NCBI GenBank assembly: GCA_965153285.1
Contig: OZ229116.1
DNA: 64,000 nt
Reading direction: 5' to 3' (one strand)
Source: Podarcis tiliguerta
Taxonomy: Eukaryota
A program made the position numbers. This document shows positions 13,101 to 22,100 of this stretch, piece after piece. Every line of letters begins with the position of its first letter. The stretch's first letter is position 1.

Positions 13101-16100
13101 AAACTCAGCCACCCTTGCAGTTACTTCCGGGTTAATGTCAGACAGAAAGAATCTGATATTTTCATTGTGTCGTGATGTTAGATTACCCAAAAAAGGGAAT
13201 AACAAGCCTTATTAGCTCGTTGTGTACTGGACAGTTTACTGAAAAGGATATGTGCTACAGTGTCCGGCACATTCAAATATCATTTGCAATGTCTATCATT
13301 TTTGGGGATGTTTAAATATCTGCCCTTGACAAAAGCTGAGGGGAAAACGTTCAATCGGGTTAACATAAAGTCCCTGCGTTGGGCTGGAATTATTTATTTT
13401 GAGATATAAGTGACCCTGTTACCTGTTGTATTTAAACCATAGAACTTGGGGGAGCAAATTTTATTTACAGCTGACTTGATGTTTTGTTTTTCCACCAAAC
13501 TAATCCGTGTGCCTTATTAAGCTTTTGATTAGGAAGTTTTAAGACAGCATATTGAAGCTAGTTGAGGGGAATTCAGTTGAAGTAGTAGACAGTGGTGGGG
13601 AATCTTTACTGACAGGCAGGCAGGATCCTAACCTCCCCCACCTCGCACATGGGTCTGCTGGAAATTTGTGGTGTTGGTACTGTAAAGTAACTTAAAATGG
13701 TGTGAGGTTGGCGGCTGCTAGTAATCAGAAGTGGAAGGAAACTTGAAAACACACAACACCCACCCACCCCCACACCCCTGACCACTACCTCTCTCTTACC
13801 CATGCTATCTTCTCTTCTTGTAGTGTGATTGAGCAGCTTGGTGGAAAACAGCTTGTAATGAACCACATGCACCACGAAGACCAACAGGTTCGCTATAATG
13901 CCTTGCTTGCTGTGCAGAAGTTGATGGTCCACAACTGGTATGTGACAACTCACTTTCACTTCGGGGTTTTTATATTATTTTATTTAGTAGATTTATATAC
14001 CATCCTTCATCATAAGATCTCAGGGCAGGAGTTCTTTTGGGGAATGTGTGAAACTCAAGTCCTAAATTATGACATGCCTCTTGTGGGTTACAATAAAACT
14101 TTGGTACCCTCTACCACTGAAATGATAACAATTTTAGAATTAACTCAGCAACCGGCAGTAGTGTCATTGTTAAGTGAAATTTAGGGGCTCTTCTGCTGTC
14201 TTTTTTCACTATTCCCCCCCCCCATTTTGTTATTTAATGAAAATTGAAGTAGACTGTATAAAACAGAATATATTATTATTCCTTTTTGTTTCCTGACATT
14301 TAGAATGCCTGATATTTTCAGCCTTTAATTGTGTTTCCATTAGAATTTCTTGCAGCAGGATCCATTTATATGTCTAGCAGACCTTTGGTGAACAGAAATG
14401 CAAGATGCATTTGTATTTTTCTAATAGCTGAACTGAAAGAAATAGATTCTTGTTGCAAAGTTGTTAAAAAGCTTCTGAACTGATTTGTTTTGTTTAACAA
14501 AATGTATGTGCAACTTGCTTGTTAAAAAAATAAATAAAACTTTTTTTAATGGTTTATAAAACATGAAATATATTGATAAAACATGGTTAGATACAGGTAT
14601 CAGTAAGCATTCGAAGGCGATTGAAATGAACAGTAACTAAAAAGAGATAAATCACATGTTTGCAGAAGCGGCTTAGTCATGCTGGCCACATGACCTGGAA
14701 ACTGTACTCCGGCTCCCTCTGCCAATAAAGCGAGATGAGCCCCGCAACCCCAGAGTCGGCCACGACTGGACCTAATGGTCAGGGGTCCCTTTACCTTTTA
14801 CATGTACCTTCTAAATGTCTGGGTAGGGCTGCCTGAGCAAAAATGTTTTAAGCAGGTGCCGAAGAGAGTATAGCCTGCTGGACATCAAAAGACAGAGAGT
14901 TGTAGGTGCTGCCAAATGAAACAATTTATTTCTAAGGATAGTTTTATAAACTTTTCTGCACATATGCAGGTCATTAGGAAACAGATTCTTTAGCCTTGTT
15001 TCTTAATGGCTGGCTGGGGGGACTTTTTCAGCTGTAGCAACTTAGTTGAAACTTTTTGCAAGTAATACAGACACATCAGTAGCACATCCCCTCCATGAAC
15101 TACCTCATTACATTTTGTAAAATTTATATACTAGAGAAAAGGCAGAGACAGCCTGCCTGCCTAGTATATATCGGATCATTACAGGCTATTACCATCATCC
15201 TATTCCTTGGGAATGGAATAAAGAATTTCCTAATGTCATTCTTCAAGATGCATAATCCACTCCTCCTGTTACCTAACCACTGAAATCAACTACTTCTGGC
15301 CTGTGTATACTCTAGAAACTTATACAAAAGAGAAGTTTAGCATGGTCAATCTAACTTTGTAGTGTTGCATCCCTCCTTTTCATTAGTTTCCGTTACCTGT
15401 CATGGCCTTTCAGAAGGCCTGCAAGGCTTTTACCTCTGTACTCTTTCTACTTACCTTTTAAGGCACTGTGAGGTTCAGCAGGATTTTGCACGCAGGTGGC
15501 GCTGTGGGTTAAACCACAGAGCCTAGGACTTGCTGATCAGAAGGTCGGCGGTTCGAATCCCCACGACCGGCTGAGTTCCCGTTGCTCAGTCCCAGCTCCT
15601 GCTAGCCTAGCAGTTCGAAAGCACGTCAAAGTGCAAGTAGATAAATAGGTACCGCTCCGGCGGGAAGGTAAACGGCGTTTGCGTGCGCTGCTCTGGTTTG
15701 CCAGAAGCTGCTTAGTCATGCTGGCCACACGACCCAGAAGCTGTACGCCGGCTCCCTCGGCCAGTAAAGCGAGATGAGTGCTGCAACCCCAGAGTCTGCC
15801 ATGACTGGACCTAATGGTCAGGGGTCCCTTTACCTTTACCTTTAGACATGTATAGGTCTGCACTGTTAATAATATACTTTTGTAGCAATTGATGATTCTA
15901 TAAAAAATACAACCCTCAGAGTGAGGAAAGTACAGCAAATGCATCCAAACTGTTAGGATAATTAGCCCGGTGCTGCCAGTAAATCTTCCCTGATTGATTT
16001 ACTGGCCCCTCAGTCCAGCACGCTTCCGTTGCGTGAACTCTGCTTCACTCCTACAGCAGTAAAACACCTTAGCAGAATAAGCGCAGCATACGTGTGATAA

Positions 16101-19100: not shown

Positions 19101-22100
19101 CAACTCTTAAAGTCACACCCTTCAGTTAAACTTGGGGCTTTTCTAAGAAATGCCCACCCCAAATGAGCAAAGCGTCTATGCCAAATATGAGCACAACCAT
19201 TGTGGGGCGCTACATTCACACATTGCCCCTTGGCGTCCTCTGCGTCTTCTTCTCCTGTGGACAAAGACAGGTTAACAGTAAACAAATTGTCTTTGGCATG
19301 CACTGTATAGACATGGTTGCCATCCTTGTAGAATTCGCACTTGTCACCTGCAAAAGAAACTTGAAAGCCCTCTGTTAGCAAATCATGTACACTTAACAGA
19401 CAATTGGTCAAACCAGGCACTGCAAAAGCCTTAACTTCATGCTTAAGAAAAGGACAGTAAAACAATCCAGTCGCAGTCAATTGCTTTCGACTCCCGTCCG
19501 CAACGACACAGAACTTGTCAGTCTCTACCCTCTTGCGATCCCGCAAGAGATTAGGCGACGGTACGAGAGTGTGGGTGGCTCCTGAGTCGATTATTATCTC
19601 TAGAGGATTGTTGTGTTCACACTTCTGCGTCGCCATAGCAACAACCCCCCTCTCACTGCCCACTTGGCTGGGGCCTGTGTTGGCTTTCTTCACTGTAGCC
19701 TTTGTTGCAACTCTCTCAGTTGCCATGGAGACTAGACTTCTCTCACGCAAGTCCTCACTCCTTATCTGTACTTTCGCCAGATGGTTGACCTTGAAGGCTT
19801 CCACTGTAGACGGCTTCCCACGGGAAGATTTCTCAACTCCTTCACGTAAACAGCTTATAGTAGTAGCCTTTGGAGGAAGAGGCTTCTCTGCGCTTTTGCT
19901 TTCCTCTGCCCCCCCACTCTCAGCACTCCTGGGGCTCCCAGGTCGATAACCTGCACCCCCTCTGGTGGGTCTGGTGGGTCTGGGGTTCTCCAAGCTTGGC
20001 CCCTCTCCAGGCCTCTCAGACAGACTCATCTCAGCATCAAAGCAGCTCTCTGCAGCAACCACAGCAGCTTTACTGCCCCCCTCTCTTGGGAGCTTCTCCC
20101 AGCTGCTCTCAGCTGGGCTCTCAGCGCCATCTTGGCTCTCTGCCCCTTCTGGCATCGCAGCGGCCACGTCTCGGCTTAGGCCTCCCACTCCTGCTTCACA
20201 AGCTTCTTGGAGTGCTCGCCACGCTGCACTAGGCCTTCTAGCCTCTTGTACCAGGGGTAACAGGTGTACGTCCACGTTTTCTGCTAGAAACGCTAGCACA
20301 CGCTGCTCTTCTTCTTTCTGCACCTCTGTGCTCTCTGCTGCCTTCTGGGGTTTCTGGACAACACCCCACAAACCTGCCCCCACTAGGGAAAGCTCCACAT
20401 GAAAGCTCCACGCCAGCCACGTGCTGGGGGTAAGCTTCTCACATGCTAAAGGCTCACAGCCAAAACTGTGTTTCAGAGCCATCTTCCGCCCTTCTCAGCC
20501 CCTTTCTACTCACTCAGTCTCTCAAAGGGGATATTAAAGTTTTCTGAAGCTGCCTGAGCCATGGCCCTTCCCTTCTGTCGGCTTATACTCACTCAGCCAA
20601 AACCGGGAGTCTGTGGGGCTGTTGGCTCCTTGCGTCTGAGTCTCTCCGCAGTGCCTTTGAAGATCTGACACGCGATCTCAGCCCTCCGCAGCTTCAAAGC
20701 CTTTTTCCACACGTGCTGAAGTCCATAACCTTGTTAGGATAATTAGCCCGGTGCTGCCAGTAAATCTTCCCTGATTGATTTACTGGCCCCTCAGTCCAGC
20801 ACGCTTCCGTTGCGTGAACTCTGCTTCACTCCTACAGCAGTAAAACACCTTAGCAGAATAAGCGCAGCATACGTGTGATAAAGGCTTAAATCAAGCGAAG
20901 GCAGATTCTTTCCTTAAAGTCTTTTATTGCTCCGATAACATTGGCAAAAATCCATCAGAGTTCAGCTGCATCTTCCCAGCTCCTCTCATCGAGCTGGCAG
21001 CTTACACACTGATACTTTCGCTTTCACAGCACACAAAGAACATTCCAGTCTGCTCACGTCATTTCCTGGCAGACGTCCCAGGAAATCCCTCCCCTTTAGA
21101 GCCGAGGCATAGCAGTTTACCTCATTACTGCTCCCAACACAAACCTCGTACAGTTATGTAATTTATCTGTGATACTCTTAATAAATGAACTGATAAAATG
21201 CAAAATTGACTATATATTTAACTGGTTTTGAAAAGTCATGTAATTTAGGTACTATTGCTTTTAAATAGGATTCTGAAGCAATATGACATTGATGATGAAG
21301 CTGTTTCTAAATTAACAAGCATGTGAATGTCTTCTATGCAGCTCATAATTAGCTCTGCAGCCATGTGAAGCCTCATAAAATATTTTTATGTTTGAAATGA
21401 ATATTCTGTATCTTCCCCTGTGAATTTCTCAATACATCCCTGTATTTCCCCTGCTGAAAAATACATCTTGTACTTCACTCTTTCTGGGGTTTCATTTTGG
21501 GATACTGCTCTACACCCCTTGTTTAATTAATGTTTGTTTTTCAGTCTCAGTATCCCAGAATTTCATACAGGGGAACTGAAATGGCATTTGTTTGCCAATG
21601 ACAGTAATTTATTTTCAGATTTCTATATTGAAGGAAATGGTACTTTAGACTGTGTCTCAAGCAAAGTTTAATTAAGGTTCAGTCAGTCACAATTTATTTC
21701 AGGTTCTTAAAATTATGTTGCTATGTGTAAAACTGCACAAATTTGTTTTCTGTTCAGCTTGGTAAATGTGTCTTGATTCATGTAGATTCATATTGGATTA
21801 CTGAAGCAAATAAAGCATCAAGTCAAATGTAAATTAGTGAGGAGATAGGTTTAATTTACAAGACATCTTTAATCTAACATTGCAATATAAGTGAGGACCT
21901 TAACAGCACTTTACAAATAAAAACCTAGACATGATTGAGCCAAAGTCAAAACCAGCCAAATTTTGTTGTATGCTGATATAAATGGAAGAGAGTGTTAAGA
22001 ATGTGTTTTTACACTTTAAATCAATGGGACATTCCTAACTTTCTCCCCCATTTATACCTTTGAAAGTTTTGCCCCTCTCTTAATTGGACTGGGGAAATGT

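What the first reader, a model, noticed from the sequence alone, without database searches (positions are those of the whole stretch)
15951..21139. Intact, very recent Ty1/copia element inside an essential housekeeping gene of an amniote
Seen: LTRs with no visible differences, a perfect TSD, and an uninterrupted 1425-aa ORF with all catalytic motifs. The element makes up 57% of the 9046-bp last intron of ATP6V1H, in antisense. Known: copia elements are absent from mammals and birds and patchily distributed in vertebrates. Inference: this is an active family, and the insertion may be polymorphic or horizontally acquired.
Basis: partly seen in the sequence, partly recalled or inferred. Interest (0 to 1): 0.65.

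Follow-up and report, generated by a model that had tools for sequence, protein, structure and literature searches.

The report
Young copia retrotransposon in ATP6V1H intron
A complete, recently inserted copia-type jumping gene sits backwards in the last intron of a proton-pump gene, probably in a lizard or snake genome; such elements are already known to be common and active in those animals, so it is a real but ordinary find.

Summary
Window 15951-21139 (minus strand) is a 5189-bp LTR retrotransposon. Its two 408-bp LTRs are identical, and a perfect 5-bp duplication (CAAAC) flanks it. It carries one unbroken 1425-codon gag-pol ORF with no breaks. The domain order is PR-IN-RT-RH, and every enzymatic catalytic residue is present. 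It fills 57% of the 9046-bp last intron of ATP6V1H and lies antisense to the gene.

The reading as a surprise does not hold. Papers report Copia in 23 of 24 squamate genomes, more than 2,500 copies on average in snakes, 1,962 polymorphic insertions in the green anole, and a currently active Copia inside corn-snake genes. The nearest relatives are lizard proteins: Podarcis lilfordi, 66% identity over PR-RH and 79% in RT-RH. I found no close non-squamate relative, so recent horizontal transfer has no support.

Identical LTRs bound the age only to less than about 2-7 My. Polymorphism, copy number and assembly quality could not be tested, because no vertebrate genome collection or reads were on hand.

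One mildly unusual trait is the Gag. Only its first ~100 residues resemble a copia capsid, the rest is predicted disordered, and the CCHC knuckle is missing. One diverged relative shares this trait.

Verdict: a new member of a known kind, of low interest.

The parts
15946..15950 (.). Target-site duplication, left copy (CAAAC)
15951..16358 (-). 3' LTR in element sense, 408 bp, TG...CA ends. It holds the last 50 codons and the stop of the ORF, and an AATAAA at LTR position 212.
16359..16370 (-). Polypurine tract directly upstream of the 3' LTR. A 9-base uninterrupted purine run abuts the LTR.
   Evidence: read
16205..20482 (-). Single gag-pol ORF, 1425 codons plus stop, unbroken (0 stops, 0 frameshifts)
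20153..20455 (-). Gag N-terminal helical domain (residues ~10-110), resembling the first part of the copia capsid
   Evidence: Pfam Retrotran_gag_2 covers residues 30-93 = model 2-71/172 at 17.9 bits, below the cutoff of 27. hhalign gives 93.7% probability, E 1.9e-7. The AF2 model has pLDDT 74-95 here. The best two fold matches are Drosophila copia capsid 8s41_A and 8vvw_A (prob 1.00, E 0.27-0.33, rmsd 1.9-2.1 over 73-83 columns).
19631..20152 (-). Gag C-terminal part (residues 111-284): A/S/E/G/R/P-rich, no predicted secondary structure, no CCHC knuckle
   Evidence: Shared with P0241.
19283..19630 (-). Aspartic protease region (residues ~285-400; DSG with D299)
   Evidence: No Pfam protease model reached E<=0.01.
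19061..19216 (-). Integrase N-terminal HHCC zinc-binding region (residues 423-474)
18659..19021 (-). Integrase catalytic core (rve, rve_3; residues 488-608; D497, D560, E596)
18320..18538 (-). Integrase SH3-like domain (residues 649-721)
17114..17836 (-). Reverse transcriptase, RVT_2 type (residues 883-1123; D962, FVDD 1046-1049)
16448..16885 (-). RNase H region (residues ~1200-1345; conserved D1214, E1256, D1290, D1339). Assigned by position and conservation, not by a named model.
20483..20731 (-). Untranslated leader of 249 nt between the 5' LTR and the ATG. The primer-binding site is expected at its 5' end but was not identified.
20732..21139 (-). 5' LTR in element sense, 408 bp, identical to the 3' LTR
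21140..21144 (.). Target-site duplication, right copy (CAAAC)
13824..13937 (+). Host ATP6V1H penultimate coding exon
13938..22983 (+). Host ATP6V1H last intron (GT...AG), 9046 bp, containing the element
22984..23044 (+). Coding part of the host ATP6V1H last exon (19 codons after the split Trp codon, then TGA)

Best explanation
This is one copy of a Ty1/copia LTR retrotransposon. It entered the last intron of ATP6V1H, in the opposite orientation to the gene, in the recent past of a lepidosaur genome, most likely a squamate.

Shown: two identical LTRs, a 5-bp target duplication, a polypurine tract, and a single open gag-pol frame with protease, integrase, RVT_2 reverse transcriptase and RNase H in the copia order, with their catalytic residues in place.

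Inferred: the copy arose by the usual cycle of this class. The 5' LTR is transcribed through to the poly(A) signal in the 3' LTR. The polyprotein is translated. Reverse transcription inside a Gag particle regenerates two identical LTRs. Integrase then inserts the DNA and leaves the 5-bp duplication.

Also inferred: the source family was active when this copy was made. Lying antisense in an intron, the copy most likely has little effect on ATP6V1H.

From the literature, it probably belongs to the Mtanga clade, the only Copia clade reported in Lepidosauria.
For: Structure:
- LTRs 408/408 identical, with TSD CAAAC on both sides.
- ORF of 1425 aa without a break.
- Pfam: gag_pre-integrs 423-474, rve 488-589, SH3_retrovirus 649-721, RVT_2 883-1123 at 228 bits against a cutoff of 31.6. 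Integrase therefore lies upstream of RT.
- Catalytic columns are kept in 55-58 of 58 aligned copia polyproteins, and the query has the conserved residue at each.
- The integrase core matches solved integrases, the best being 7z0h_W at E 8.7e-14.

Signs of youth:
- 0/408 LTR differences.
- CpG observed/expected is 0.44 in the element against 0.21 in the rest of the window.

Relatives:
- Best full-length hit is P0001, Podarcis lilfordi, 685/1032 identical.
- In RT-RH, P0123 is 80.9% and P0001 78.8% identical.
- In the NJ tree, window + P0001 + P0123 group in 197/200 bootstraps. A clade of 8 holding both Podarcis proteins has 200/200. The two teleost copia proteins pair elsewhere.

Host gene: exons matched one by one to V-ATPase subunit H.

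Literature (passages read): Copia is abundant, expressed, polymorphic and active in squamates.
Against: - Only one copy could be examined. The window holds no other copy or solo LTR, and no protein at least 90% identical is in the 5.8-billion-protein set. Family activity and copy number therefore rest on inference.
- Gag is atypical. Only residues 10-96 match the gag profile of 57 relatives. There is no CCHC knuckle, against 56 of 57 relatives that have one. Autonomy is therefore not certain.
- No primer-binding site was identified (no tRNA reference on hand), and no TATA[AT]A lies in the LTR.
- Pfam gave no hit for the protease or RNase H parts at E<=0.01. These rest on conserved columns only.
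- The host taxon was not identified directly. 'Lepidosaur' is inferred from the lizard relatives and from the literature on which amniotes carry Copia.
- Mtanga membership was not tested.
- LTR identity could in principle come from assembly or gene conversion.
Confidence: 0.85

Rival explanations
1. The insertion is old, and the identical LTRs are secondary. They were homogenised either by gene conversion between the LTRs or by the assembler collapsing two similar LTRs onto one sequence.
For: LTR identity is the only dating evidence, and no reads were available. The window does contain assembly gaps (N runs at 27587-27786 and 60568-60698), so the assembly is not perfect.
Against: - The 4.3-kb ORF between the LTRs is also intact, with every catalytic residue. 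LTR homogenisation would not produce that.
- The TSD is perfect.
- CpG o/e is twice that of the surrounding DNA.
Confidence: 0.06
2. The family reached this genome by recent horizontal transfer from an invertebrate (arthropod, parasite or prey), and this copy belongs to the burst that followed.
For: - Outside the lizard clade, the next groups in the RT-RH tree are invertebrate or unnamed proteins (Trichuris muris group 145/200, Lasius niger group 103/200), not the two teleost copia proteins.
- PMC11889832 (passages) raises horizontal acquisition of Mtanga by Sarcopterygii as a hypothesis.
Against: - No close non-squamate relative was found. The best named non-squamate hit is 43.8% identical in RT-RH (Trichuris muris). 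Lizard and unnamed relatives form a graded series of 81, 79, 74, 73, 66, 57 and 47%. That pattern fits long residence and diversification in squamates.
Confidence: 0.05
3. The copy is not autonomous. Its Gag has lost the C-terminal capsid lobe and the nucleocapsid knuckle, so it was packaged and mobilised with Gag supplied by a related, canonical copia family.
For: - The gag profile of 57 relatives matches only its columns 8-91 of 279. The match lies in the ORF's own frame, and nothing is hidden in the other frames.
- Pfam Retrotran_gag_2 covers only model positions 2-71 of 172, below the cutoff.
- No CCHC knuckle.
- Residues 111-284 are predicted unstructured.
Against: - P0241, a 405-aa protein from elsewhere, shares the same Gag through to the protease at 51-56% identity. 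Conservation is even along its length, and it also has no CCHC. The architecture is therefore maintained across diverged members rather than being decay of this copy.
- Yeast Ty1 Gag works without a zinc knuckle (recalled, not from a call).
- In frogs, Pfam's copia gag model was found in only about 30% of Mtanga-like elements (PMC4131045, passage).
- The AF2 alignment was shallow (18 rows, of which 2 cover this part well), so 'disordered' is weakly based.
Confidence: 0.15

Closest known systems
Corn-snake Copia LTR retrotransposon (5,832 bp) inserted in OCA2 and CLCN2 (PMC4657000, PMC11948899; passages read)
   Same: It is a full-length Copia element in an amniote, inserted inside a host gene. 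Its copies are nearly identical (two differ by 1 nt; 85 copies above 95% identity), and the authors read it as currently active. It carries gag, integrase, RT and Ty1/Copia RNase H domains.
   Different: It is 5,832 bp against 5,189 bp here. Those insertions alter the host transcript and cause colour phenotypes, whereas no effect is known here. No sequence of the snake element was on hand, so no identity was measured.
Podarcis lilfordi protein P0001, named by NCBI 'Retrovirus-related Pol polyprotein from transposon TNT 1-94'
   Same: From protease to RNase H it is 66% identical (685/1032), and 78.8% in RT-RH. It has the same domain order and is the nearest named neighbour in the tree (197/200).
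   Different: Its Gag carries the full Retrotran_gag_2 domain (model 1-169/172, E 1.4e-30) and a CCHC knuckle. The window's Gag (residues 1-281) gives no BLAST match to it. P0001 also ends inside RNase H.
Mtanga clade of Copia (first described in Anopheles gambiae; reported as the only Copia clade in Lepidosauria, PMC11889832, and as 'Mtanga-like' in tuatara, PMC7116210)
   Same: The host range fits. The window's clade contains lizard proteins, and its next neighbours are terrestrial invertebrate proteins rather than fish copia.
   Different: Membership was not tested. No Mtanga reference sequence could be brought in with these tools.
Drosophila copia
   Same: Both have a single gag-pol ORF (recalled for copia). 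The best two structural matches of the Gag model are copia capsid structures 8s41_A and 8vvw_A.
   Different: The match covers only 73-83 columns of a 184-187-residue capsid chain, at E 0.27-0.33. No C-terminal lobe or knuckle is recognisable here.
Yeast Ty1
   Same: It has the same order PR-IN-RT-RH and a 5-bp TSD. The best solved-structure match of the integrase is chain 7z0h_W, which I recall as a yeast Ty1 integrase complex; the call shows only 'Integrase'. Ty1 Gag has no zinc knuckle (recalled).
   Different: Ty1 expresses pol by a frameshift (recalled), whereas here there is one continuous frame. Sequence similarity is distant.

Membership tests
Ty1/copia (Pseudoviridae-type) LTR retrotransposon | Two direct LTRs with TG...CA ends | tested here: met
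   408/408 identical; ends read directly
Ty1/copia (Pseudoviridae-type) LTR retrotransposon | Short target-site duplication (5 bp is usual for this group; recalled) | tested here: met
   CAAAC on both sides
Ty1/copia (Pseudoviridae-type) LTR retrotransposon | Integrase encoded upstream of reverse transcriptase (PR-IN-RT-RH) | tested here: met
   rve 488-589 lies before RVT_2 883-1123
Ty1/copia (Pseudoviridae-type) LTR retrotransposon | Reverse transcriptase of the RVT_2 (PF07727) type | tested here: met
   E 1.6e-67, 228.1 bits, cutoff 31.6
Ty1/copia (Pseudoviridae-type) LTR retrotransposon | Catalytic residues of PR, IN, RT and RNase H | tested here: met
   The query has the conserved residue at 15 catalytic or zinc-binding columns that are kept in 55-58 of 58 sequences. 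The RNase H and PR assignments rest on conservation only.
Ty1/copia (Pseudoviridae-type) LTR retrotransposon | Copia-type Gag capsid domain (PF14223) | tested here: inconclusive
   Only model positions 2-71 of 172 match, at 17.9 bits, below the cutoff of 27. hhalign gives 93.7% over 86 columns. The copia capsid is the top fold match but at E 0.27-0.33.
Ty1/copia (Pseudoviridae-type) LTR retrotransposon | CCHC zinc knuckle in Gag (common, not universal) | tested here: not met
   Query has none; 56 of 57 relatives have CX2CX4HX4C
Ty1/copia (Pseudoviridae-type) LTR retrotransposon | Polypurine tract next to the 3' LTR | tested here: met
   A 9-base purine run abuts the LTR
Ty1/copia (Pseudoviridae-type) LTR retrotransposon | Primer-binding site complementary to a host tRNA next to the 5' LTR | not testable with these tools
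   The window has no tRNA gene, and no vertebrate tRNA reference was available
Mtanga clade of Copia | RT/RNase H groups with the reference Mtanga element in a phylogeny | not testable with these tools
   No reference sequence was obtainable. Indirect support only: it groups with lizard proteins, and PMC11889832 reports only Mtanga in Lepidosauria.
Ty3/gypsy or endogenous retrovirus (considered) | Order PR-RT-RH-IN, RVT_1-type RT, env for retroviruses | tested here: not met
   Integrase precedes RT, the RT is RVT_2, and there is no further ORF of at least 150 aa
Domesticated copia-derived host gene (considered) | Loss of LTRs and TSD; a single conserved locus | tested here: not met
   Both LTRs and the TSD are intact

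The most novel reading that the evidence does not exclude
The element may represent a living squamate Copia sub-lineage with a remodelled Gag. The Gag would keep only the N-terminal capsid lobe. The C-terminal lobe and the CCHC knuckle would be replaced by about 170 residues of conserved but apparently disordered sequence. The pol stays 66-81% identical to lizard relatives that have a canonical Gag. If so, the lineage either builds its particle in a non-canonical way or relies on another family's Gag, and the sharp gag/pol discontinuity would mark a module exchange between Copia lineages.
Probability: 0.25. Interest if true: 0.4.

Novelty: new member of a known kind. Interest (0 to 1): 0.18.

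Why it matters
The locus adds one well-defined example of very recent Copia insertion in a reptile-type genome, inside a conserved housekeeping gene. It could serve as a presence/absence marker, and as a test case for how an antisense intronic LTR element affects 3'-end processing of its host gene. It does not change what is known, because active, polymorphic and intragenic Copia elements are already documented in squamates. The knuckle-less, half-recognisable Gag is the only feature that might repay a family-wide look.

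Tried and rejected
- Hidden frameshift in gag. The three element-sense frames of 19500-20731 were scanned separately with a profile of 57 relatives' gag. Only the ORF's own frame matched (E 1.4e-13), and the other frames gave nothing better than E 0.31. Rejected.
- Other copies or solo LTRs in the window: none found by blastn or tblastn.
- Gypsy/ERV reading: rejected on domain order.
- tRNA genes and Rfam families in the window: 0 and 0. The primer-binding site stayed unidentified.
- The promoter/terminator scan of the 5' LTR uses bacterial consensus, found 0 sites and says nothing here.
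- Word-based search with Gag residues 1-290 among proteins of 783-2494 aa: none of 3789 candidates reached E<=0.001. The exhaustive HMMER search then found 5.
- ESM Atlas on Gag: best score 0.86, a cluster of copia gag proteins. This is a lead only.
- Pfam scans outside the element:
  - 34 ORFs of at least 90 aa.
  - 112 of the 274 plus-strand pieces of at least 28 aa computed for 1-30000, namely those from 10068 to 26020.
  - All 277 pieces of at least 55 aa on both strands outside 10000-23100.
  - Only five ATP6V1H exon pieces matched. The one other hit, SR-25, lies over a (GAA)n repeat and is low-complexity.
The names and sources of the unnamed relatives therefore stayed unknown.
- The first tree script timed out. 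It was redone on trimmed RT-RH segments.
As a result, copy number, the empty site in other individuals or species, and assembly checks stayed unchecked.
- Supplementary files of the papers were not seen. Additional files 3 and 9 of PMC11889832, with per-species copy and clade tables, may bear on which species and cluster this element belongs to.

Full report
THE ELEMENT

The window has a GC-richer, C-skewed block at 16-22 kb. A direct-repeat search found one pair, with a start-to-start spacing of 4781. Base-by-base extension gave an exact match of 409 bases. That is 408 bases of LTR (15951-16358 and 20732-21139) plus one base that is shared only because the flanking duplication begins with it.

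Each LTR begins TG and ends CA, with 7 of 8 matching terminal inverted bases. CAAAC lies immediately outside both ends, at 15946-15950 and 21140-21144.

The only ORF of at least 150 aa between 15000 and 22000 is 16205-20482 on the minus strand, 1425 aa from an ATG, with no internal stop. The gene has 0 breaks.

Other anatomy, in element sense:
- A 249-nt leader follows the 5' LTR.
- A 9-base purine run abuts the 3' LTR.
- The ORF runs 50 codons into the 3' LTR.
- One AATAAA lies at LTR position 212, and no TATA[AT]A is present.

DOMAINS

Pfam gives gag_pre-integrs 423-474, rve 488-589, rve_3 578-608, SH3_retrovirus 649-721 and RVT_2 883-1123 (228 bits, cutoff 31.6). Integrase therefore precedes RT, which is the copia order.

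I aligned the query with 57 copia polyproteins. These came from the first 70 ids of the 120 listed, keeping those of 1200-1500 aa. The query carries the conserved residue at each of these columns:
- Protease: D299, 58/58.
- Integrase zinc site: H435, H440, C467, C470, 58/58 each.
- Integrase core: D497 57/58, D560 58/58, E596 58/58.
- RT: D962, D1048, D1049, 58/58 each.
- RNase H: D1214 58/58, E1256 57/58, D1290 56/58, D1339 55/58.

The RT motif reads FVDD and the protease motif DSG. The integrase core matches solved integrases, the best at E 8.7e-14. No Pfam model reached E<=0.01 for the protease or RNase H parts, so those two rest on conserved columns and position.

HOST GENE

I checked the host gene exon by exon.

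Of 112 plus-strand stop-to-stop pieces between 10068 and 26020, 3 match V-ATPase_H_C, in model order: 10154-10420 (model 3-45), 12382-12591 (42-79) and 13747-14181 (77-117). Two further pieces, 8345-8602 and 9019-9243, match V-ATPase_H_N at positions 195-267 and 264-314 (2 of 150 pieces).

The piece 13747-14181 matches residues 426-465 of the 483-aa subunit H chains in the PDB. Reading the sequence gives an AG at 13822-13823, an exon at 13824-13937, and a GT at 13938.

The piece 22952-23041 matches residues 464-483, to the C-terminus (E 1.7e-5). An AG lies at 22982-22983, and 19 codons then TGA follow.

The last intron is therefore 13938-22983, 9046 bp. The element is 57% of it and lies on the other strand.

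I do not take this window for human. It carries a Copia element, a superfamily absent from mammals (PMC4350176), and its nearest element relatives are lizard proteins.

RELATIVES

The full-length search listed the best 120 of 178 hits at E<=1e-10:
- P0001 from Podarcis lilfordi: 66% identity over 71% of the query.
- Two unnamed proteins at 53% and 50%.
- Everything else at 39% or less.

BLAST shows P0001 aligning from query residue 282 to 1292, 685/1032 identical, with no match to Gag.

Among shorter proteins, the RT-RH part finds P0123 at 81%, P0121 at 74%, P0122 at 73%, P0155 at 57%, Podarcis raffonei at 47% and Trichuris muris at 44%. The rest are at most 43%. Nothing at 90% or more was found in either search.

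I built a neighbour-joining tree of RT-RH from the window plus 25 hand-picked relatives out of the 240 retrieved (15 named, 10 unnamed), over 486 query columns with 200 bootstraps:
- Window + P0001 + P0123 group in 197/200.
- A clade of 8 with both Podarcis proteins has 200/200.
- The two teleost proteins pair elsewhere, 200/200.
- The next outgroups are a Trichuris muris group (145/200) and a Lasius niger group (103/200).

This is a small, hand-picked, distance-based tree and should be read as descriptive.

GAG

Gag is the one odd part.
- Pfam's copia gag model matches only residues 30-93, model positions 2-71 of 172, at 17.9 bits against a cutoff of 27. P0001 and P0003 match the whole model, and P0002 matches only positions 3-77.
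- A profile of the 57 relatives' gag matches the query only over residues 10-96 (hhalign 93.7%, E 1.9e-7; hmmsearch E 1.4e-13).
- The other two frames hold nothing, so this is not a disguised frameshift.
- 56 of 57 relatives have CX2CX4HX4C and the query has none. At the second cysteine column the query has E where 57 of 58 sequences have C.
- Residues 97-284 are A/S/E/G/R/P-rich and roughly charge-neutral, with a mildly basic stretch at 211-270.
- An AlphaFold2 model from an 18-row alignment has helices at 19-108 with pLDDT 74-95, and no structure beyond residue 110 (mean pLDDT 60.7).
- Its two best PDB matches are Drosophila copia capsid structures (8s41_A, 8vvw_A; probability 1.00 but E 0.27-0.33; 73-83 columns; rmsd 1.9-2.1). 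None of the 52 matches reached E<=0.001.

An exhaustive HMMER search of 1.84 billion representatives with Gag residues 1-284 found 5 proteins at E<=0.001. The best is P0241 (405 aa), 56% identical over residues 5-267 at E 2e-46. P0241 also lacks CCHC and continues into the protease. Its identity to the query is even along Gag, 17-24 identical per 33-40 aligned residues in each 40-residue window.

The knuckle-less Gag is therefore a trait of a small lineage, not damage to this copy. In frogs, Pfam's gag model was found in only about 30% of Mtanga-like elements (PMC4131045, passage), so weak Gag recognition is not unusual in this group.

AGE

With 0 differences in 408 bases, the 95% upper bound on age is 7.3, 3.7 and 1.8 My for assumed rates of 0.5, 1 and 2 x 10^-9 per site per year. 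The rates are round assumptions, not measured for this host.

CpG observed/expected is 0.44 in the element against 0.21 in the rest of the window, which is consistent with youth. 'Very recent' on a population scale is possible but not shown.

WHAT IS KNOWN

For every paper below I read passages found by term search. I did not read whole texts, and supplements were not seen.
- PMC11889832 (Mob DNA 2025):
  - Copia was found in 23/24 Squamata.
  - Snakes average more than 2,500 copies.
  - Squamata hold 66% of the 49,920 copies detected across metazoans.
  - No Copia was found in 20 Testudines or in the Chinese alligator.
  - Only the Mtanga clade occurs in Lepidosauria, and 90% of Mtanga clusters come from squamates.
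  - Horizontal acquisition by Sarcopterygii is raised as a hypothesis.
- PMC4350176: Copia is absent from mammals and birds.
- PMC7116210: a Mtanga-like Ty1/Copia is especially abundant in tuatara.
- PMC7561263: the table of polymorphic insertions in Anolis carolinensis lists 1,962 under Copia.
- PMC4657000 and PMC11948899: a 5,832-bp Copia is inserted in an OCA2 intron and in CLCN2 of corn snakes. The two copies differ by one base. There are 85 copies above 95% identity, restricted to Pantherophis/Pituophis, and the authors consider the element possibly active.
- PMC8872380: Copia is 0.47-1.65% of elapid genomes, and is expressed and expanding in hydrophiines.
- No paper in the library holds both 'ATP6V1H' and 'copia'. 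This particular insertion is not in print there.

VERDICT

The element is an ordinary, young, structurally complete Copia copy of the kind already known to be abundant and active in squamates. The inference of horizontal transfer finds no support.

Polymorphism, copy number and assembly correctness could not be tested.

The N runs at 27587-27786 and 60568-60698 were left as they are.

Noticed in passing
window 3646-4016, 12184-12259, 14663-14821, 15485-15860, 58870-59253: A dispersed SINE-like repeat family with five copies at 69-92% identity. The copies end in a short ACCTTT-type repeat. One copy ends about 90 bp from the copia insertion site. No tRNA or Rfam match was found.
   Followed up: partly
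window 46778-47013, 57160-57363, 59935-60171: A second dispersed repeat. The copies at 46778 and 57160 are direct (204 nt, 93%). Both are inverted relative to 59997-60171 (175 nt, 90-94%).
   Followed up: no
window 36700-39700: A GC-richer (0.46-0.50), purine-skewed block with long open frames on both strands (241 and 246 codons at 36725-37463). No Pfam match. Possibly a decayed mobile element.
   Followed up: partly
window 59872-59933: A (GAA)20 microsatellite. It produces spurious sub-threshold Pfam SR-25 hits in the overlapping frames.
   Followed up: yes
window 25748-25831 and 52616-52750: Two short tandem arrays: 30 bp x 2.8 (100% matches) and 71 bp x 1.9 (93%).
   Followed up: no
window 13938-15950 versus 21140-22983: The two halves of the host intron flanking the element differ in CpG observed/expected (0.417 left, 0.152 right) and in GC (0.408 against 0.358). 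The left half holds three copies of the SINE-like repeat.
   Followed up: no
window 15951-16358 and 20989-21138: The polyprotein frame reads through the polypurine tract and 50 codons into the 3' LTR. The same 50 residues are therefore also encoded in the 5' LTR.
   Followed up: partly
window 27587-27786 and 60568-60698: Two runs of N (200 and 131 bases), left untouched.
   Followed up: no
window 8345-14181: Besides the last two exons, four more 3' exons of ATP6V1H lie upstream on the plus strand, within pieces 8345-8602, 9019-9243, 10154-10420 and 12382-12591. No other gene was recognised in the 41 kb downstream of the stop codon.
   Followed up: partly
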